Shown: positions 1 to 36,144 of the stretch, piece after piece | How the letters are laid out: each line of letters begins with the position of its first letter | Numbering within the stretch: the stretch's first letter is position 1 | IMG/VR virus record: IMGVR_UViG_2728369608_000005 | From: a virus | Lineage: Duplodnaviria > Heunggongvirae > Uroviricota > Caudoviricetes | Direction: 5' to 3' (one strand) | Length of the DNA: 36,144 bases | Position numbers and translations under genes: made by a program | The notes under the pieces: generated by a model | Told to the model about the DNA's origin: nothing | Database searches by the model: none | The model's input: only the letters and a program-made list of their open reading frames with translations

Positions 1-502
1 ATGGCAAACCTACCTGAAACCCCGCAGTGGGAAGAAGGCATCTACCAGATTGAGGTCTCTGACCCCGTTCTGGGCGGGCCTGACGGAATTTCTAACCGTC
101 AGGGTAAACAACTGGCCAGCCGCACGCTGTACCTGAAGCAACAGGTTGAAAAAGGCGGTTCTGACCTTGCGAAACATATCGCGGCAGCAGACCCGCATAC
201 CCAGTACGCACCGAAAGCCAGCCCGACATTCACCGGCACACCAACAGCGCCTACGCCTGCAAATAGCGATAACAGCAAGAAGCTGGCGACGACGGAGTTT
301 GTGGCCAAAGCACTTGCGGCGCTTGCAGGCAGCGCCCCTGAGACGCTGGATACGCTCAAAGAGCTGGCTGATGCCCTCGGCAACGATCCGAATTTTGCGA
401 CCACTGTGTTGAACAAGCTGGCGGAGAAGCTGGCCAAAGACCAGAACGGCGCTGATATTCCTGACCCGGCGCTCTTTGTCAAAAACCTTGGTTTGGGAGA
501 AG
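1..502. repeat. Left copy of a perfect >=502-bp inverted repeat (fibre constant region); outer limit cut by window edge
   Basis: Reverse complement of 1..502 equals 2423..2924; first mismatch at 503/2422. Confidence 0.9.
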
Positions 503-942
503 CGGCAAAACGGAATGTGGGCAACGGGGAAAACCAAATCCCTGATATGTCTTTCTGGACGGTTACTGGTGGCAATGGAAATTTTGTGATTCGTCAACCT
601 GACGGGCTAATCATTCAGATGGTTACTGTAAGTATAAGCGGTCCAGTGGCGATGAATGGAATGACTGATAATGCTTATGCCATTACAGGTTCTAATAAGT
701 CTTATATTGCCACAGCCACATTGCCCTTTGTATTTCCTAATAAGGTGCTGGGCGTTATCCCTCTGGTATCAACAACAGCTTATGGTGGTGTATCCAGTAA
801 TATTACAGGTTCATACGCGACGGCGGTTTGTTCTTTTGCCGCTGTCATGGGGAATAATACGATTGTGTTCAAAGTCGACAAACCACTGAATGCAGCCTTT
901 CCTTCAGATACCAGCGTCTCAGCGTTAATCATTGGACGGTAA
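1..942 (+). CDS. Tail fibre protein, variant A (alternative receptor-binding C-terminus)
   Basis: First 167 aa identical to the fibre at 1962..2924, then a different C-terminus encoded by visibly AT-rich DNA. Confidence 0.75.
   Translation: MANLPETPQWEEGIYQIEVSDPVLGGPDGISNRQGKQLASRTLYLKQQVEKGGSDLAKHIAAADPHTQYAPKASPTFTGTPTAPTPANSDNSKKLATTEFVAKALAALAGSAPETLDTLKELADALGNDPNFATTVLNKLAEKLAKDQNGADIPDPALFVKNLGLGEAAKRNVGNGENQIPDMSFWTVTGGNGNFVIRQPDGLIIQMVTVSISGPVAMNGMTDNAYAITGSNKSYIATATLPFVFPNKVLGVIPLVSTTAYGGVSSNITGSYATAVCSFAAVMGNNTIVFKVDKPLNAAFPSDTSVSALIIGR
476..501. promoter_or_regulatory. Candidate hix/gix-like invertase crossover site (left)
   Basis: TTGTCAAAAACC-TT-GGTTTGGGAGAA: two 12-bp half-sites around a 2-bp core, at the inner edge of the repeat. 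Confidence 0.6.
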
Positions 943-944
943 GA

Positions 945-1388
945 ATGAACTCAGTATTCTTTTCACCCGGAAGTAAAAGTTTTTATCTGCAAGAATTGTT
1001 TCCAGAATATGAGGATGCGGGAACGCTTCCTGATGATGTTATTGAAATTACCAGAGAAACATATGAGCAATTTCTTGGGCTGCATCCAGAAGGGAAAGAA
1101 ATTGGCGCTGACAGTTCAGGACGGCCAATATGGATTAATTCCCCGCCGCCTTCAAAAGAGGATGAGATGCTGGCGGCTGAAATGAAAAAGATATCTTTGG
1201 TTTCAGAAGTCAATACCTACATCAATACCAATCAGTGGCCTGGCAAAGCTGCTATTGGTCGTCTGAAAGGTTACGAGCTGGAACAATATAATTTATGGCT
1301 GGATTATCTGGACGCACTGGAACTGGTTGATACCTCCAGTGCTCCAGATATTGAATGGCCTACGCCTCCGGTAGTTCAGGCCAGATGA
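945..1388 (+). CDS. Tail fibre assembly chaperone (Tfa), cognate to variant A
   Basis: C-terminal Tfa signature LWLDYLDALELVDTSSAPDIEWPTPP; directly follows fibre A. Confidence 0.75.
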   Translation: MNSVFFSPGSKSFYLQELFPEYEDAGTLPDDVIEITRETYEQFLGLHPEGKEIGADSSGRPIWINSPPPSKEDEMLAAEMKKISLVSEVNTYINTNQWPGKAAIGRLKGYELEQYNLWLDYLDALELVDTSSAPDIEWPTPPVVQAR

Positions 1389-1965
1389 CATCCGGCGCGG
1401 TGCTGGTATCTGTTGCAGTCACCGCGTCAATGTAATCCAGCACAGCGTTAAGCCGGGTTGTTTCTGCCTGCGTCAGCTTCCGCCCGGCCTGCAATTTCAG
1501 CTGAATCAGACTAATGGAAGCCATAGCAGCATCAATCAGTGACTGGCGCCGTACTTCTGCCGCGTCTACTGCGGCGTTATGCTGTGCCTCAGTATCGGTC
1601 ACCCATTTCTCACCATCCCATTTATCGTATGACGTTAACGGGGCGATAGTGGTTGTATTTTCAGGGTAATCACCCGGAACTGTGATTTCTTTTGATTCTC
1701 CTGTTTCGGTGCTATAGACGATTTCACCGCGATGGTCTGGCACATATTCCCATGAGTTAAAATCTGCAGAACGGCAAATTGCATAACCAGCTTTATATGA
1801 GCCAGGAGCATCTAAACAGGAACATGCCGGGATACCGACACCCACAGCAAGATATTCAGTTGATGTGGAAATATATTCCCGTGTTTCACCATCATAATTA
1901 TAAACGGTAATGTCTCCGGCCTTTGTGGCGATGAGTTCATTATTTAATACAGCTTTACTTATCAT
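1360..1965 (-). CDS. Tail fibre assembly chaperone (Tfa), cognate to variant B
   Basis: C-terminal Tfa signature LDYIDAVTATDTSTAPDVIWPELP; overlaps the start of fibre B by 4 bp. Confidence 0.8.
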   Translation of the reverse strand: MISKAVLNNELIATKAGDITVYNYDGETREYISTSTEYLAVGVGIPACSCLDAPGSYKAGYAICRSADFNSWEYVPDHRGEIVYSTETGESKEITVPGDYPENTTTIAPLTSYDKWDGEKWVTDTEAQHNAAVDAAEVRRQSLIDAAMASISLIQLKLQAGRKLTQAETTRLNAVLDYIDAVTATDTSTAPDVIWPELPEA

Positions 1966-2924
1966 GCAGCCCTCACAATATAATTAAAGGCGATGTTACG
2001 GGAGCGGGTTTCAGATGCTGTGCGAACTGAGCGAGATGCGTCGAATGTCCAGTTATAAGCGCCATAACCCTCAATAATTTCGGCTTCCTTTAGACCTGTA
2101 GATAATACTTCTTGCCCATGTTGACTAAATGGCCCTGAACTAAGTACGCCTTTAAAAAGCTGGGTACGCCCAAAAGAACCAACAATATTCTGAATTGCAT
2201 CATTCTGTGCAGATAATAAGTTACGACCAGAGTCAATCCCGCGCCCATCATCCCAGCCACGAATAAATTCACCGCGTAAATCAGGCAATTTATTTGTCGG
2301 ATAAGCCTTTGCCAGTTCCGGGTATTCTTCAGCAGAAAAAGCCGCACCGTTGCATTTCAGCCAGCCTGTTGGCGGTGTGGCTGAAGGCCATGGAACAGGC
2401 ACACCAACAGGTAATGCAGAGCCTTCTCCCAAACCAAGGTTTTTGACAAAGAGCGCCGGGTCAGGAATATCAGCGCCGTTCTGGTCTTTGGCCAGCTTCT
2501 CCGCCAGCTTGTTCAACACAGTGGTCGCAAAATTCGGATCGTTGCCGAGGGCATCAGCCAGCTCTTTGAGCGTATCCAGCGTCTCAGGGGCGCTGCCTGC
2601 AAGCGCCGCAAGTGCTTTGGCCACAAACTCCGTCGTCGCCAGCTTCTTGCTGTTATCGCTATTTGCAGGCGTAGGCGCTGTTGGTGTGCCGGTGAATGTC
2701 GGGCTGGCTTTCGGTGCGTACTGGGTATGCGGGTCTGCTGCCGCGATATGTTTCGCAAGGTCAGAACCGCCTTTTTCAACCTGTTGCTTCAGGTACAGCG
2801 TGCGGCTGGCCAGTTGTTTACCCTGACGGTTAGAAATTCCGTCAGGCCCGCCCAGAACGGGGTCAGAGACCTCAATCTGGTAGATGCCTTCTTCCCACTG
2901 CGGGGTTTCAGGTAGGTTTGCCAT
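1962..2924 (-). CDS. Tail fibre protein, variant B (tail-collar-type C-terminus), currently joined to the late operon
   Basis: Lies directly downstream of the gpI-like gene; C-terminus has Mu S / P2 H-like collar motifs (WLKCNGAAFSAEEYPELAKAYP, LPDLRGEFIRGWDDGRG). Confidence 0.85.
   Translation of the reverse strand: MANLPETPQWEEGIYQIEVSDPVLGGPDGISNRQGKQLASRTLYLKQQVEKGGSDLAKHIAAADPHTQYAPKASPTFTGTPTAPTPANSDNSKKLATTEFVAKALAALAGSAPETLDTLKELADALGNDPNFATTVLNKLAEKLAKDQNGADIPDPALFVKNLGLGEGSALPVGVPVPWPSATPPTGWLKCNGAAFSAEEYPELAKAYPTNKLPDLRGEFIRGWDDGRGIDSGRNLLSAQNDAIQNIVGSFGRTQLFKGVLSSGPFSQHGQEVLSTGLKEAEIIEGYGAYNWTFDASRSVRTASETRSRNIAFNYIVRAA
2423..2924. repeat. Right copy of the inverted repeat
   Basis: Same comparison as the left copy; the N-terminal 167 aa of both fibres are identical. 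Confidence 0.9.
2424..2449. promoter_or_regulatory. Candidate hix/gix-like invertase crossover site (right)
   Basis: TTCTCCCAAACC-AA-GGTTTTTGACAA; closely resembles Salmonella hixL as I recall it (TTCTTGAAAACCAAGGTTTTTGATAA). Confidence 0.6.
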
Positions 2925-2926
2925 AA

Positions 2927-3505
2927 TTAACTGCTCCCGTGGTTATAGCTACCGTCATAGTTGACGGTGTTGTTGTAGCGAATGGCGACAGACTGATACT
3001 CAAGGCTCGCCAGATGGCAGCGGGCCGGAGCAAAGGCAGCGAGCGTCTGGCGTAACAGCGCCGCCTGATCGTTAGTAATGGGCTGCTGAAGGATGACGCG
3101 ATAGACCGCCCAGGCTTCTGCATCGCCATGGACGAAAAGCCCGTTGTACGTGTGTTTGCCGTCGTAGCCAATCTGGCCAGTGCCTTCAATCAGATCCACT
3201 TCGCCGAAGCCGAAACGGCGGATAATTTCCCGGATTGACCACGGCGTCCCTTTATAGCGGTGCAGCTCGATAGCAGATTTGATAAGCATGCGGCGTACAT
3301 CGTCCGATTCCGCCAGCTCCCAGCCATCGCCAAACAGCGAGAACTGCTCGCCCAGCCATGGCAGCGCGGAACTGTCGACGATATCGACGAGATAGACCAT
3401 CAGTACGCTCAGGTCGATGTTATCCAGCTGCCCGGCCAGTTTTCCCAGCGTTCTGAGGCTGATATCACCCTCAAGCGGCGGCGGGAGTTGTAGCGGCTCA
3501 GCCAT
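2927..3505 (-). CDS. Tail/baseplate protein (P2 gpI-like, Mu gp48-like)
   Basis: 192 aa; sits between baseplate J and the tail fibre; stop at 2927 abuts the fibre start. Confidence 0.6.
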   Translation of the reverse strand: MAEPLQLPPPLEGDISLRTLGKLAGQLDNIDLSVLMVYLVDIVDSSALPWLGEQFSLFGDGWELAESDDVRRMLIKSAIELHRYKGTPWSIREIIRRFGFGEVDLIEGTGQIGYDGKHTYNGLFVHGDAEAWAVYRVILQQPITNDQAALLRQTLAAFAPARCHLASLEYQSVAIRYNNTVNYDGSYNHGSS

Positions 3506-28558: not shown

Positions 28559-30328
28559 ATGAGTGCCGCCCTGACTGAACGACTGGTTTATGTTGCCCGC
28601 GCGGCACGTGACGCGGGGCATGGTAAGCGTGGTGCGATATATGATGCCGCCTGCGCCGAACTGGGCATTTCCCGCGCCACCCTGCTGCGCAAGCTGAAGG
28701 AGGTATCAGTGACTGACAAACGTAAAAAACGCGCCGATGCCGGGCGCAGTGCCCTGAGCCGCGACGAAGCCGCGCTGATATCTGCCACGCTGCGCGAGGC
28801 CACCCGTAAGAACGGTAAGCGCCTGTATTCCATCGCGGATGCGGTGGAGACCCTGCGGTCAAACGGCTTTATCACTGCTGGCAGAACGGACGAGGCCACA
28901 GGCGAGTTTTTCCCGCTGTCCGAGGACACCATCAGCCGCGCCCTGCGGAACTATGGTCTGCACCCGGAACAGCTTGACGCACCGGCCCCGTCGTCCGAGA
29001 TGGCCAGCCTGCATCCCAATCACGTCTGGGAGATTGATGCCTCACTTTGTACGCTTTACTACCTGAGCAACGGCCATAAAGGGTTGCAGGTGATGGACAG
29101 CTCGAAGTTCTACAAGAACAAGCCTGCCAACATCGCCCGCATCGCCAGTGACCGCGTGTGGAGTTACGAGATTACCGACCATACCAGCGGCTGGATTTAC
29201 GTTGAGTACGTGATGGGTGCGGAATCTGGTGAGAACCTCTGTTCTGTGCTTATCAACGCCATGCAGGAGCGCGGCGGCGCGGACGTGCTGCACGGCGTGC
29301 CGAAAATACTCTACCTTGATCCCGGTTCGGCGAACACCGCTGGCATGACGAAAAACATGTGCCGCTCGCTGGGCATCAATCTGATAGCGCACAAGCCGCA
29401 TAACGCCCGCGCCACCGGGCAGGTGGAAAAGGCCCGTGACATTATCGAACGTAAACTGGAGCCGGGTCTCAAATTCCAGCCGGTTCATAGCCTGGACGAA
29501 CTGAACGCGCTGGCGGTGAAATGGCGCAGCCACTTTAACGCCACGGCGGTCCACAGCCGCCACGGTAAAACCCGCACGGATATCTGGCTGAAGATTACTG
29601 CTGGCCAGCTGAAAAAAGCGCCATCCGTTGAGGTTTGCCGCGAACTGGCGGTGGCCGCACCGGAACTCCGTAAGGTCACACCAAAACTGCGCGTCTCGTT
29701 CCGGGGCAATGAGTTTGACGTTTCGACGGTACCGGGCGTACTGGTCGGCGAAAAACTGATGATTACCCGTAACCCGTGGCGCAGCGATGTGGCGCAGGTG
29801 GTGCTGACCGGTGAGGACGGTCACGAGACGTTCTTCCTAGTCGAGGAGGTCAGAAAGAACGAGTTCGGCTTTGCCGAAAGCGCGGCGGTATTTGGCGAAA
29901 ACTACAAAGCCCTGCCGGAGACCCCGGCGCAGACGGCGGCAAAAGAAATCGAAGAGCTGGTTACGGGCACCGATAACGCCACCGATGCAGCTGCTGCACG
30001 CAAGGCGAAGGCGCTGCCGTTCGGCGGGCGACTTGACCCGTACAAACATATCGACGACACCACGCTTCCGGCCTATATGCCGAAGCGCGGTCAGGCTTCA
30101 GACGTGCGCGGGCCGCGTATTGAGCAGCGTCCGCTGACCCATGTGGAGGCGGCGAAAGCCCTGCGCGAGAAGTTTGGCGCTAACGGCCATATCTGGACGC
30201 CGGAACATTACCGCCAGTTAACGGCACAGTACCCGGACGGCGTACCGGAAGCCGCTCTGGATGAGGTCATGGTCACCCTGACCACTCCGGCCCGCAACAG
30301 CGTTATCAGCATCGTTAACGGTAACTGA
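28559..30328 (+). CDS. DDE transposase (Mu A-like function)
   Basis: 589 aa; candidate DDE residues in HVWEIDAS, LYLDPGSANT and a downstream Glu; followed by the B-like ATPase. Confidence 0.8.
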   Translation: MSAALTERLVYVARAARDAGHGKRGAIYDAACAELGISRATLLRKLKEVSVTDKRKKRADAGRSALSRDEAALISATLREATRKNGKRLYSIADAVETLRSNGFITAGRTDEATGEFFPLSEDTISRALRNYGLHPEQLDAPAPSSEMASLHPNHVWEIDASLCTLYYLSNGHKGLQVMDSSKFYKNKPANIARIASDRVWSYEITDHTSGWIYVEYVMGAESGENLCSVLINAMQERGGADVLHGVPKILYLDPGSANTAGMTKNMCRSLGINLIAHKPHNARATGQVEKARDIIERKLEPGLKFQPVHSLDELNALAVKWRSHFNATAVHSRHGKTRTDIWLKITAGQLKKAPSVEVCRELAVAAPELRKVTPKLRVSFRGNEFDVSTVPGVLVGEKLMITRNPWRSDVAQVVLTGEDGHETFFLVEEVRKNEFGFAESAAVFGENYKALPETPAQTAAKEIEELVTGTDNATDAAAARKAKALPFGGRLDPYKHIDDTTLPAYMPKRGQASDVRGPRIEQRPLTHVEAAKALREKFGANGHIWTPEHYRQLTAQYPDGVPEAALDEVMVTLTTPARNSVISIVNGN

Positions 30329-30338
30329 GGAGGAAGGC

Positions 30339-31505
30339 ATGCTGGTACTGAAGCAACAACTGAAAGAGGCCCGCATCCCGCAGGCGGCGGTGGCAAGAGC
30401 CGTCGCCGTTTCCGAGGCCACGCTGGCCCAGATTGTGAACCATAACGAGTGGCCCCGCACCAGCCCCGAAGAGGTACGCCAGCGTCTGGCGTTGTATCTG
30501 GAAAGTAAGGGGATTGATACAGCGAAAAGTTTTGATGCTGCACAGGGCGCTGTCACACCCCGTACAGCGGGTACTACCGATAAAACCAACCTCAGTGAGG
30601 AAGAGAACATGTTACTCAAAAAGCAGGTGTTATTTCCAGCAACCAAAAAAGCGTTTGGTCTTTTCCGTGACCCGTTCGCCGATGAAGCCATGCAGGGCGC
30701 GGACGATGTGTTCACCACGCCGGATATCCGCTACGTGCGTGAGGCGCTGTTCCAGACCGCCCGCCACGGTGGCTTTCTGGCGGTTATCGGCGAGTCCGGT
30801 GCGGGTAAATCCACGCTGCGCCGCGACCTGATTGAACGCGTCAACCGCGAGAACGCGCCGGTGATTGTTATCGAGCCATACATCATCGCCATGGAAGACA
30901 ACGACGTGAAGGGCAAAACCCTGAAGGCGGCAGCTATCGCCGAGGCCATCATCAGCACCATCGCGCCGCTGGAGAGTATCAAACGCAGCCAGGACGCCCG
31001 TTTCCGCCAGTTGCACCGCGTCCTGAAGGACAGCAGTCAGGCGGGTTTTAGCCACGTTCTGGTGATTGAGGAGGCCCACAGTCTGCCCATTCCGACGCTG
31101 AAGCACCTCAAACGCTTCTTTGAGCTGGAATCCGGCTTCAAAAAACTGCTGTCCATCGTGCTGATTGGCCAGCCTGAGCTGGCGGACAAACTGTCCGAAC
31201 GCAACATGGAAGTCCGTGAGGTCGTCCAGCGCTGCGAGGTGGTTGAACTGCTGCCGCTGGACAACAGCCTCGAAGAGTTTCTGACGTTCAAACTGCAACG
31301 CGCCGGTAAGCAGCTGTCTGACATCATGGACGCCAGCGCAGTGGAAGCCGTCCGCGCCCGTCTGAGCAATCTGGGCAGCAACCGTAAAAGCATGGTCAGC
31401 CTGCTGTATCCGCTGGCCGTCAGTAACCTGGTGATAGCCGCCATGAATCTGGCTGCTGAAATCGGGGTTCCGCAGGTCAACGCCGACGTCGTCAAAGGAG
31501 TTTAA
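30339..31505 (+). CDS. Transposition ATPase (Mu B-like, AAA+)
   Basis: 388 aa; N-terminal HTH-like region; Walker A GESGAGKST; Walker B-like VLVIEEAH. Confidence 0.8.
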   Translation: MLVLKQQLKEARIPQAAVARAVAVSEATLAQIVNHNEWPRTSPEEVRQRLALYLESKGIDTAKSFDAAQGAVTPRTAGTTDKTNLSEEENMLLKKQVLFPATKKAFGLFRDPFADEAMQGADDVFTTPDIRYVREALFQTARHGGFLAVIGESGAGKSTLRRDLIERVNRENAPVIVIEPYIIAMEDNDVKGKTLKAAAIAEAIISTIAPLESIKRSQDARFRQLHRVLKDSSQAGFSHVLVIEEAHSLPIPTLKHLKRFFELESGFKKLLSIVLIGQPELADKLSERNMEVREVVQRCEVVELLPLDNSLEEFLTFKLQRAGKQLSDIMDASAVEAVRARLSNLGSNRKSMVSLLYPLAVSNLVIAAMNLAAEIGVPQVNADVVKGV

Positions 31506-35230: not shown

Positions 35231-35256
35231 GGGGGGCATCGTCCCCCTTAATTTTC
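35231..35256 (+). terminator. Rho-independent terminator at the end of the early operon
   Basis: GGGGGG-catcgt-CCCCC hairpin followed by TTAATTTT, directly after the stop at 35224. Confidence 0.5.
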
Positions 35257-35320
35257 ATATACTGTAAATGAATTACATAACCTTTTGTTTGTCTCTTCCC
35301 ATCACGTACCATAAAGTCCC

Positions 35321-35356
35321 ATTTATCTTACGGTACCCCCTATATTTATCTCACGT
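35321..35356. repeat. Terminal direct repeats, candidate transposase-binding sites
   Basis: ATTTATCTTACGG (35321..35333) and ATTTATCTCACGT (35344..35356); element ends ...TCTAATCA at 35363. Confidence 0.5.
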
Positions 35357-35363
35357 CTAATCA

Positions 35364-36144
35364 GGCGGCGAAAGTGGGCGGCATTGTTGCCAACAACACC
35401 TATCCGGCAGATTTCATCTACCAGAACATGATGATTGAGAGCAACATCATTCACGCCGCGCATCAGAACGACGTGAACAAACTGCTGTTTCTCGGATCGT
35501 CCTGTATCTACCCGAAACTGGCAAAACAGCCGATGGCAGAAAGCGAGTTATTGCAGGGTACGCTGGAGCCGACTAACGAGCCTTATGCTATTGCCAAAAT
35601 CGCCGGGATCAAACTGTGCGAATCTTACAACCGCCAGTATGGACGCGATTATCGCTCGGTCATGCCGACCAACCTGTATGGCCCGCATGACAACTTCCAC
35701 CCGAGTAATTCGCATGTGATCCCTGCATTGCTGCGTCGCTTCCACGAGGCGACGGCACAGAATGCACCGGACGTGGTGGTGTGGGGCAGCGGTACACCGA
35801 TGCGCGAATTTCTGCACGTCGATGATATGGCGGCGGCGAGCATTCATGTGATGGAGCTGGCGCACGAAGTCTGGCTGGAGAACACCCAACCGATGCTGTC
35901 GCACATTAACGTCGGCACGGGCGTTGACTGCACTATCCGCGAGCTGGCGCAAACCATCGCCAAAGTGGTGGGTTACAAAGGTCGGGTGGTTTTTGATGCC
36001 AGTAAACCGGATGGTACACCGCGCAAACTGCTGGATGTGACACGCCTGCATCAGCTTGGCTGGTATCACGAAATCTCACTGGAAGCGGGGCTCGCCAGCA
36101 CTTACCAGTGGTTCCTTGAGAATCAAGACCGCTTTCGGGGGTAA
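35364..36144 (+). pseudogene. fcl: GDP-L-fucose synthase gene, 5'-truncated by the prophage insertion
   Basis: Reading frame from 35365 encodes [26 protein letters not shown]... to the C-terminus ...[11 protein letters not shown]; the N-terminal ~62 codons are absent from the window. Confidence 0.85.

What the first reader, a model, noticed from the sequence alone, without database searches (positions are those of the whole stretch)
1..2924. Invertible tail-fibre host-range switch with hix/gix-like sites and two complete constant regions
Two convergent fibre-plus-chaperone cassettes share a perfect >=502-bp inverted repeat that encodes the N-terminal 167 aa of both fibres. A 26-bp site resembling Hin/Gin/Cin crossover sites sits at the inner edge of each repeat copy (476..501 and 2424..2449), so recombination would invert ~489..2436 and swap the receptor-binding domains. 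Unlike the Mu G segment, both copies carry their own start codon, so either both fibres are expressible or the left copy reflects an assembly path through a mixed-orientation population. The variant A cassette is visibly AT-rich, suggesting a horizontally acquired module. No invertase gene is in the window.
Basis: partly seen in the sequence, partly recalled or inferred. Interest (0 to 1): 0.65.

Follow-up and report, generated by a model that had tools for sequence, protein, structure and literature searches.

The report
Ordinary tail-fibre switch, duplicated by assembly
This is a well-known kind of phage DNA switch that flips a segment to swap the tip of the tail fibre, and its one odd feature, a second copy of the fibre gene's front half, is almost certainly an assembly artefact at the very end of a draft contig.

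Summary
A perfect 502-nt inverted repeat (1-502 / 2423-2924) flanks two convergent fibre-tip plus chaperone cassettes. A 26-bp site lies at the inner edge of each arm (476-501, 2424-2449). It matches published pixL/pixR at 23/26 and hixL at 22/26.

The switch is real but already known. The cassette is about 98% identical to the segment next to pinE in e14-like E. coli prophages. One such element occurs in both orientations in different assemblies, with breakpoints inside the sites.

The "two complete constant regions" are not a genomic feature:
- The window starts 36 bases from the end of its source contig (ATLY01000025.1). The repeat runs through those 36 bases to the contig end (538 nt), crossing the start codon into the upstream baseplate gene.
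- All 14 related loci examined have a Hin-type serine invertase gene at that position, and only one full-length fibre gene.
- In three relatives of the same prophage whose sites I read, the invertase-side site has a different outer half. The window's left site has the constant-region type, so it is the junction produced by inversion.

The contig most likely threads reads of both orientations. Interest is low.

The parts
1..475 (+). Left 'constant region' copy (fibre codons 1 to about 158). It is an exact reverse complement of 2450-2924 and is judged an assembly artefact at the contig end.
   Evidence: Part of the 502-nt perfect inverted repeat. The repeat continues 36 nt further to the physical end of contig ATLY01000025.1, into the 3' end of the gpI-like gene. 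Relatives have the phage terminus and an invertase gene at this position.
476..501 (+). Left 26-bp crossover site, TTGTCAAAAACC TT GGTTTGGGAGAA, with the central dinucleotide at 488-489. Its outer half is the constant-region (Sc) type, so this is the junction expected after inversion (the 'A-on' state, Sc fused to Av).
   Evidence: In L001, L003 and L004 the invertase-side outer half is TTTCCAAAAACC.
502..942 (+). Variable 3' part A of the fibre gene (Av, codons 168-313), the alternative receptor-binding tip.
   Evidence: ORF. Weak, sub-threshold Pfam Gp53-like_C match. Low G+C. In relatives it is a truncated ORF next to the invertase.
945..1388 (+). Tail-fibre assembly chaperone A (TfaA, 147 aa), cognate to Av.
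   Evidence: Pfam Caudo_TAP, E = 5e-27. The identical protein is indexed in 420 blocks of the public collection. The 10 places shown span e14-like, P2-like and BcepMu-like prophage backbones plus one I could not classify.
1360..1965 (-). Tail-fibre assembly chaperone B (TfaB, 201 aa), cognate to Bv. Its 3' end overlaps that of TfaA by 29 nt.
   Evidence: Pfam Caudo_TAP, E = 6e-32. ORF.
1962..2423 (-). Variable 3' part B of the fibre gene (Bv, codons 168-320), with a tail-collar domain.
   Evidence: Pfam Collar, E = 3e-15, residues 174-221. ORF.
2424..2449 (-). Right 26-bp crossover site, identical to the left one, with the central dinucleotide at 2436-2437. This is the genuine junction between the constant region and the segment (the 'B-on' state).
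2450..2924 (-). Genuine constant 5' part of the fibre gene (Sc), lying outside the invertible segment and directly downstream of the gpI-like baseplate gene.
   Evidence: ORF. 99.8% identical to the single Sc of E. coli G5, which is followed by a cassette and a recombinase gene.
2927..3505 (-). gpI-like baseplate gene, shown as context for the late tail operon. Its last 34 nt are also duplicated at the contig end.
   Evidence: Pfam Tail_P2_I, E = 1.5e-24..
35244..35363 (+). Right terminus of the transposable prophage, ending ...CGTCTAATCA and carrying GATAAAT repeats. The host fcl gene starts at 35364.
   Evidence: fcl is 100% identical to E. coli from window 35364 onward. The terminus mirrors the left terminus of relatives L001 and L003.

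Best explanation
Window 476-2449 is a canonical invertible tail-fibre cassette of the Pin/Hin/Gin/Cin type. It sits in a BcepMu-like transposable prophage of E. coli.

How the switch works:
- The fibre gene's constant 5' part (Sc, 2450-2924, minus strand) lies outside the segment, at the end of the late tail operon.
- A serine DNA invertase, encoded just beyond the other site, exchanges strands at the central AA/TT of the two inverted 26-bp sites.
- Inversion flips about 1.95 kb. Sc is then fused in frame either to Bv followed by TfaB, or to Av followed by TfaA. This swaps the receptor-binding tip and its chaperone.

Why the left 'second constant region' (1-475) is not in the genome:
- The draft contig runs Sc, Bv ... 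Av, and then back into the reverse complement of Sc, ending 538 nt later at the contig end.
- So the contig contains both recombinant junctions (Sc-Bv and Sc-Av), but not the real left flank of about 720 bp, which should hold the invertase gene and the phage terminus.
- The most likely cause is that the sequenced culture held both orientations and the assembler threaded reads of both.

What is shown and what is inferred:
- Shown: the anatomy, the sites, the repeat reaching the contig end, the canonical layout in relatives, and inversion of a near-identical cassette in an e14-like element between assemblies.
- Inferred: that this strain's invertase lies on another contig, that the culture was mixed, and that Fis and an enhancer are needed (established for Hin, Gin and Cin from my own knowledge, not tested here).
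For: 1. The repeat is perfect. It extends past the ATG into the gpI-like gene and stops only at the physical end of contig ATLY01000025.1.

2. Four records of the same prophage all read: phage end, recombinase gene, site, truncated variable ORF, tfa, tfa, one full-length fibre, gpI, gpJ. They are L001 (its baseplate-side DNA 98.5% identical), L003, L004 (a phage record 97.4% identical over 24.9 kb) and L017 (Sc 99.8% identical).

3. All 10 places carrying the identical TfaA have a Resolvase+HTH_7 gene flanking the cassette and only one full-length fibre gene.

4. Half-site logic: in L001, L003 and L004 the invertase-side outer half is TTTCCAAAAACC and the Sc-side outer half is TTGTCAAAAACC. 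The window has the Sc type on both sides. This is what results from joining the two alternative Sc junctions.

5. The site matches published sites (PMC3241671, Table 3). The inner half is 12/12 identical to pixL and pixR, the core is AA, and the outer half is 11/12 identical to hix. Overall it matches pixL and pixR at 23/26 and hixL at 22/26.

6. L006 and L008 are the same e14-like element. Their flanks are 99.98% identical and collinear, and the central 1,957 bp is inverted with breakpoints in the sites.

7. The relatives' recombinase has Resolvase and HTH_7 domains and is about 84% identical to clusters that sources name Hin.

8. The prophage's right end is intact inside host fcl. In L001 and L003 the matching left terminus lies about 720 bp outside the left site. 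That stretch is missing from the contig.

9. Precedents: e14 switches within cultures grown from single colonies (PMC4272514). In the EC958 genome, tail-fibre switching produced spurious alternative contigs, and the authors warn of artefactual duplications (PMC4134206).
Against: - No reads were available, so the artefact is inferred and not shown.
- I could not retrieve the other contig of GCA_001466755.1 that should carry the fcl 5' part, the phage end and the invertase.
- A genuine inverted repeat longer than the reads would also tend to end a contig, so the contig-end position alone does not exclude a real duplication.
- The exact Sc-Av fusion protein is on record only in this contig. No finished E. 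coli genome covers 80% or more of that gene. The A-on state of this particular prophage is therefore attested only by this contig.
Confidence: 0.88

Rival explanations
1. The left copy is still an artefact, but the culture was not mixed. The assembler mis-joined across the short repeat shared by the two genuine sites, from a culture in a single orientation.
For: In relatives the invertase-side and Sc-side sites share a perfect stretch of 22-23 nt, CAAAAACCTTGGTTTGGGAGAA(G). A de Bruijn assembler using k of 23 or less would collapse it and could take the wrong exit.
Against: Assemblers usually run with larger k or need longer overlaps. In-culture switching of such cassettes is well documented. 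The assembly method is unknown to me.
Confidence: 0.08
2. The strain really carries an inverted duplication of the fibre constant region, 538 bp or longer, in place of the invertase. Both fibre genes would then be complete and could be expressed together, or flipped by homologous recombination.
For: Both ORFs are intact and in frame. A long perfect repeat would itself break a short-read assembly at about this point.
Against: - The duplicated stretch carries no promoter region of its own. It is just the reverse complement of the gpI-like 3' end.
- None of the 14 related loci has this layout.
- 22 of the 30 best finished genomes have only one place matching 1-942.
- The prophage would lack its left terminus although its right terminus is intact.
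- I can see no simple recombination event that would give this product.
Confidence: 0.04

Closest known systems
e14 prophage P segment and the Pin invertase (pinE) of E. coli K-12
   Same: - The cassette at 475-2450 is about 98% identical to the segment next to pinE in many finished E. coli genomes.
- The inner half-sites are 12/12 identical to published pixL and pixR, with the same AA core.
- The layout is the same: two variable fibre parts with their chaperones, convergent.
- Both orientations of that element are seen among assemblies.
   Different: - The backbone is a BcepMu-like transposable prophage with a P2-type baseplate, not the e14 element.
- The constant region is different.
- The outer half-site differs (GGTTTTTGACAA, closer to hix).
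- The likely invertase, judged from relatives, is a 193-aa protein, against the 184-aa recombinase next to the e14-type cassette.
Phage Mu G segment and Gin (Sc / Sv-U / U'-S'v)
   Same: The logic is the same: a constant 5' fibre part outside the segment, alternative 3' parts plus chaperones inside, 26-bp sites in inverted orientation, and the invertase gene just beyond the distal site at the phage end. The Mu details are from my own knowledge. The gix sequences are from PMC3241671.
   Different: - The site matches gix at only 19/26, and the core is AA rather than GA.
- The fibres are much shorter (313 and 320 aa).
- The apparent second Sc, which Mu lacks, is judged an artefact.
Tail-fibre allele switching in E. 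coli EC958 prophages Phi1, Phi2 and Phi4, with the spurious contigs it caused (PMC4134206)
   Same: - Collar-domain variable parts, 26-bp crossover sites and 2-3 kb invertible segments.
- Switching during culture left both orientations in the assembly.
- The authors explicitly warn of artefactual duplications in phage regions.
   Different: - There the alternative allele came out as separate PacBio contigs. Here it appears fused onto the end of the main contig.
- As I read Table 3 of that paper, the long imperfect inverted repeats run from the site into the segment. Here the long perfect repeat runs outward from the sites.
Salmonella Hin and hix (flagellar phase variation)
   Same: The relatives' invertase is about 84% identical to clusters that sources name Hin. 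The outer half-site matches hix at 11/12, and the whole site matches hixL at 22/26.
   Different: Hin flips a promoter. This system swaps the 3' coding parts of a structural gene.

Membership tests
Invertible tail-fibre segments driven by Hin/Gin/Cin/Pin-type (Din-family) serine invertases | Two 26-bp crossover sites in inverted orientation, with imperfectly dyad-symmetric 12-bp half-sites and an identical central dinucleotide | tested here: met
   Sites at 476-501 and 2424-2449, found twice against 0 expected. The core is AA/TT. The site matches pixL and pixR at 23/26 and hixL at 22/26. The two half-sites are symmetric at 9/12.
Invertible tail-fibre segments driven by Hin/Gin/Cin/Pin-type (Din-family) serine invertases | A serine DNA invertase gene (Resolvase plus HTH_7 domains) adjacent to the segment | tested here: inconclusive
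   None in the window, and the source contig ends 512 nt outside the left site. The place where it is expected is therefore not in the data. All 14 related loci have one exactly there. Domains were checked and the similarity to Hin.
Invertible tail-fibre segments driven by Hin/Gin/Cin/Pin-type (Din-family) serine invertases | A constant 5' gene part outside the segment, with alternative 3' parts and cognate chaperones inside in opposite orientations, in frame in both states | tested here: met
   Sc-Bv is a 320-aa ORF and Sc-Av is a 313-aa ORF. They are identical for 167 aa and diverge right after the site. Each is followed by a Caudo_TAP gene.
Invertible tail-fibre segments driven by Hin/Gin/Cin/Pin-type (Din-family) serine invertases | Both orientations actually occur | tested here: met
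   Direct for the near-identical cassette in the e14-like element, comparing L006 with L008. Indirect for this prophage: both Sc junctions are present in the one contig. Reads were not available.
Invertible tail-fibre segments driven by Hin/Gin/Cin/Pin-type (Din-family) serine invertases | A Fis-dependent recombinational enhancer within the invertase gene | not tested
   The invertase region is absent from the contig. I did not analyse the relatives' genes for Fis sites.
e14 P-segment type cassette | Sequence identity of the segment and of its inner half-sites to the e14/pinE-linked segment | tested here: met
   98.3% identity over 479-2450 to the pinE-linked segment of E. coli ES5 and many others. 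The inner half TTCTCCCAAACC equals that of pixL and pixR.
BcepMu-like transposable (Mu-like) prophage | A DDE transposase with an ATPase partner, TG...CA termini, and insertion at varied sites inside host genes | tested here: met
   - An rve-domain protein at 28559-30328, scoring just below Pfam's cut-off (31.4 against 32.6 bits), and an AAA_22 protein at 30339-31505.
- The terminus ends ...ATCA at 35363 inside fcl.
- Relatives are inserted in gadC (L001), in a formate acetyltransferase gene (L003) and next to yjfY (L017).
- About 75% nucleotide identity to BcepMu in the tail sheath and tube region.
- The left terminus and the target-site duplication are not in the contig.

The most novel reading that the evidence does not exclude
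The E. coli strain truly carries an inverted duplication of the fibre constant region, 538 bp or longer, that has replaced the invertase end of the prophage. The prophage would then encode two complete fibre genes with different tips at once. It could make dual-specificity particles, or switch by RecA-dependent recombination between long perfect repeats instead of by a site-specific invertase.
Probability: 0.04. Interest if true: 0.5.

Novelty: already known. Interest (0 to 1): 0.1.

Why it matters
It matters little as biology. Invertible tail-fibre cassettes have been textbook material since Mu, P1 and e14, and this cassette is about 98% identical to one found in many E. coli genomes.

Its practical value is as a warning. 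Programmed inversions can leave chimeric, hairpin-like duplications at the ends of draft contigs, and these then look like novel gene arrangements with two complete fibre genes.

As a by-product, having both recombinant junctions in one contig hints that the switch was active in the sequenced culture.

Tried and rejected
1. I tried to find the invertase-bearing contig of the same assembly.
- A search with a relative's invertase returned only cluster representatives at 95% identity or less. It gave no sequence I could tie to GCA_001466755.1.
- Exact look-ups of fibre A and fibre B found only the source contig.
- The TfaA look-up returned other strains only. Only 24 of 420 index blocks were read.

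2. I looked for a finished E. coli genome holding this exact Sc-Av fusion. There is none at 80% coverage or more, so the A-on state of this prophage is not independently attested.

3. I considered that the window starting exactly on an ATG meant a self-contained gene. I rejected this. The window is cut at gene boundaries: it also ends on the fcl stop codon. The source contig shows the repeat continuing upstream of the ATG.

4. I considered that the repeat might resemble the long inverted repeats known in P1 (from my own knowledge) and in EC958 Phi1. I rejected this. As I read the EC958 table, those are imperfect and run inward from the sites. This one is perfect and runs outward to a contig end.

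5. I considered replicative-transposition products of a Mu-like phage as the source of an inverted duplication. I rejected this because the junction lies at the crossover site and not at a phage terminus.
Full report
**1. Observation**

- Arms 1-502 and 2423-2924 form a 502-nt, 100% complementary inverted repeat.
- Four ORFs lie between and across the arms: fibre A (1-942, +, 313 aa), chaperone A (945-1388, +), chaperone B (1360-1965, -) and fibre B (1962-2924, -, 320 aa).
- The two fibres share exactly 167 N-terminal residues and diverge right after ...FVKNLGLGE.
- The 26-mer TTGTCAAAAACCTTGGTTTGGGAGAA occurs exactly twice, at 476-501 (+) and 2424-2449 (-). With up to 3 mismatches allowed, 100 shuffles gave none.
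- No invertase gene is in the window.

**2. What the sites are**

I compared the site with the published table of target sites for this invertase family (PMC3241671, Table 3).
- Read from the inside outward, the site is TTCTCCCAAACC AA GGTTTTTGACAA.
- The inner half is 12/12 identical to pixL and pixR, and the core is AA.
- The outer half is 11/12 identical to hixL and hixR.
- Overall it matches pixL and pixR at 23/26, hixL at 22/26 and gix at 19/26.

**3. The cassette is a known, widely shared module**

- Matches in finished E. coli genomes start at about 475-485 and end at about 2440-2450, which is at the sites. Identity is about 98%, typically next to a gene annotated pinE in an e14-like element.
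- The identical TfaA protein is indexed in 420 blocks of the public collection. The 10 places shown span e14-like (Mu-type baseplate), P2-like and BcepMu-like prophage backbones, plus one I could not classify.
- In all 10 places a Resolvase+HTH_7 gene flanks the cassette on the side away from the baseplate genes. The ORF next to it is a truncated variable part. Only one full-length fibre gene is present.
- L006 and L008 are the same e14-like element in two assemblies. Their flanks are 99.98% identical and collinear, while the central 1,957 bp is inverted. The breakpoints are inside the 26-bp sites. Outer half-sites stay with the flanks and inner half-sites travel with the segment.
- This is comparative evidence that the cassette inverts at these sites. 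In-culture switching of e14 is published (PMC4272514).

**4. The prophage**

- The tail genes are P2-like: Tail_P2_I, and Baseplate_J, GPW_gp25, Phage_base_V, Phage_GPD, Phage_tail_X and Phage_P2_GpU.
- The other arm encodes an rve-domain protein (just below Pfam's cut-off) and an AAA_22 ATPase.
- The window is 97.4% identical over 24.9 kb to the record 'Klebsiella phage KP12 clone KP12_2', 86% to Escherichia phage PhiKM, and about 75% to BcepMu in the sheath and tube region.
- Its right terminus ends ...CGTCTAATCA at 35363. From 35364 the sequence is 100% identical to E. coli fcl.
- The host is therefore E. coli, and the phage is a transposable phage inserted in a gene that, from my own knowledge, belongs to the colanic acid pathway.
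- Relatives are inserted in other places: in gadC, in a formate acetyltransferase gene, and next to yjfY.

**5. The 'second constant region'**

The exact fibre A protein is on record in a single contig: NCBI GCA_001466755.1, ATLY01000025.1, 60,861 bp. Window base 1 is contig base 37. Five observations argue that the left copy is not a genomic feature.

a. The 36 bases to the left of the window are the exact reverse complement of window 2925-2960. The perfect repeat is therefore 538 nt. It crosses the start codon into the 3' end of the gpI-like gene and stops only because the contig stops. The left copy has no upstream region of its own.

b. Four records of the same prophage all have one Sc. 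Beyond the distal site they have a 582-bp recombinase gene and then the phage end. These are L001, L003, L004 and L017, the last with Sc 99.8% identical. That recombinase has Resolvase and HTH_7 domains and is about 84% identical to clusters that sources name Hin.

c. In L001, L003 and L004 the invertase-side site has the outer half TTTCCAAAAACC, and the Sc-side site has TTGTCAAAAACC. The window has the Sc type at both sites. Its left junction is therefore the recombinant Sc-Av junction of the flipped state, not the resident invertase-Av junction.

d. In L001 and L003 the left phage terminus (TGATGCGCC...GATAAAT...) mirrors the window's right terminus and lies about 720 bp outside the left site. 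That terminus and the invertase are what the contig lacks, although the right terminus is intact.

e. 22 of the 30 best finished genomes have only one place matching any part of 1-942.

**6. Interpretation**

The contig contains both alternative junctions of one constant region. It runs Sc-Bv ... Av-Sc(reverse complement) and then ends.

The simplest cause is a culture containing both orientations, with the assembler following A-on reads out of the segment. The EC958 genome paper reports the same phenomenon as spurious alternative contigs and warns of artefactual duplications in phage regions (PMC4134206).

A minor variant is a mis-join through the 22-23 nt that the two genuine sites share.

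A true inverted duplication cannot be excluded without reads, but nothing supports it.

**7. Mechanism**

- Sc is transcribed with the late tail operon on the minus strand.
- A Hin-type serine invertase, encoded beyond the distal site, cleaves at the central AA/TT of the two inverted sites and inverts about 1.95 kb (about 489-2436).
- This fuses Sc in frame to Bv (tail-collar domain) followed by TfaB, or to Av (weak Gp53-like_C match) followed by TfaA. The receptor-binding tip changes as a result.
- A requirement for Fis and an enhancer is inferred from what is established for Hin, Gin and Cin. It was not tested.

**8.

The low G+C covers almost the whole segment between the sites (about 42-45% against about 57%), not cassette A alone. 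The stretch at 1300-1600, holding the chaperone 3' ends, is the exception at about 55%. Together with the 98% identity to cassettes in unrelated backbones, this supports horizontal exchange of the whole module. I recall that such exchange was already described in the tail-fibre literature (the Sandmeier 1994 review, which PMC4134206 cites for tail-fibre switching).

**9. Verdict**

The switch is real and already known. The striking feature, two complete constant regions, is almost certainly an assembly artefact at a contig end. Interest is low.

Noticed in passing
window 35244-36144: The prophage is a BcepMu-like transposable phage inserted inside the host GDP-L-fucose synthase gene fcl. The junction is at 35363/35364. 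Only the 3' part of fcl (35374-36144) is present, so the gene is disrupted in this strain. From my own knowledge fcl belongs to the colanic acid pathway, so that pathway may be affected.
   Followed up: partly
window 35244-35363; L001 3281-3330: The phage termini start with TGAT and carry two copies of a GATAAAT(G) motif about 20-25 nt apart, at both ends in inverted orientation. These are plausible transposase-binding repeats.
   Followed up: partly
window 1 and 36144: The window begins exactly on a start codon and ends exactly on a stop codon, so it was cut at gene boundaries. The source contig extends 36 nt to the left and about 24.7 kb to the right.
   Followed up: yes
window 1300-1600: The two chaperone genes converge and overlap by 29 nt (1360-1388). 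Their 3' ends form a G+C-rich island (about 55%) inside the otherwise low-G+C segment, with an 18-nt imperfect inverted repeat at 1298-1315 / 1424-1441. One possible reason is that both encode a similar C-terminal chaperone domain.
   Followed up: no
L004 (OM835952.1, 'Klebsiella phage KP12 clone KP12_2'): This record is filed under Vequintavirinae with a Klebsiella host. It is nevertheless 97.4% identical over 24.9 kb to this E. coli transposable prophage, and it starts 23 nt before the invertase gene. It looks like a co-assembled prophage rather than part of a Vequintavirinae phage.
   Followed up: no
L006-L015: The identical TfaA, with a cassette bounded by the same inner half-sites, sits in e14-like, P2-like and BcepMu-like backbones and in one I could not classify. 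The constant regions differ greatly, giving full-length fibres of 246 to 528 aa. Module exchange appears to break exactly at the crossover sites.
   Followed up: partly
window 2927-3505: The gpI-like baseplate protein gives a short, sub-threshold Pfam match to NarE (25.1 bits against a cut-off of 27, residues 112-136). It is probably spurious.
   Followed up: no
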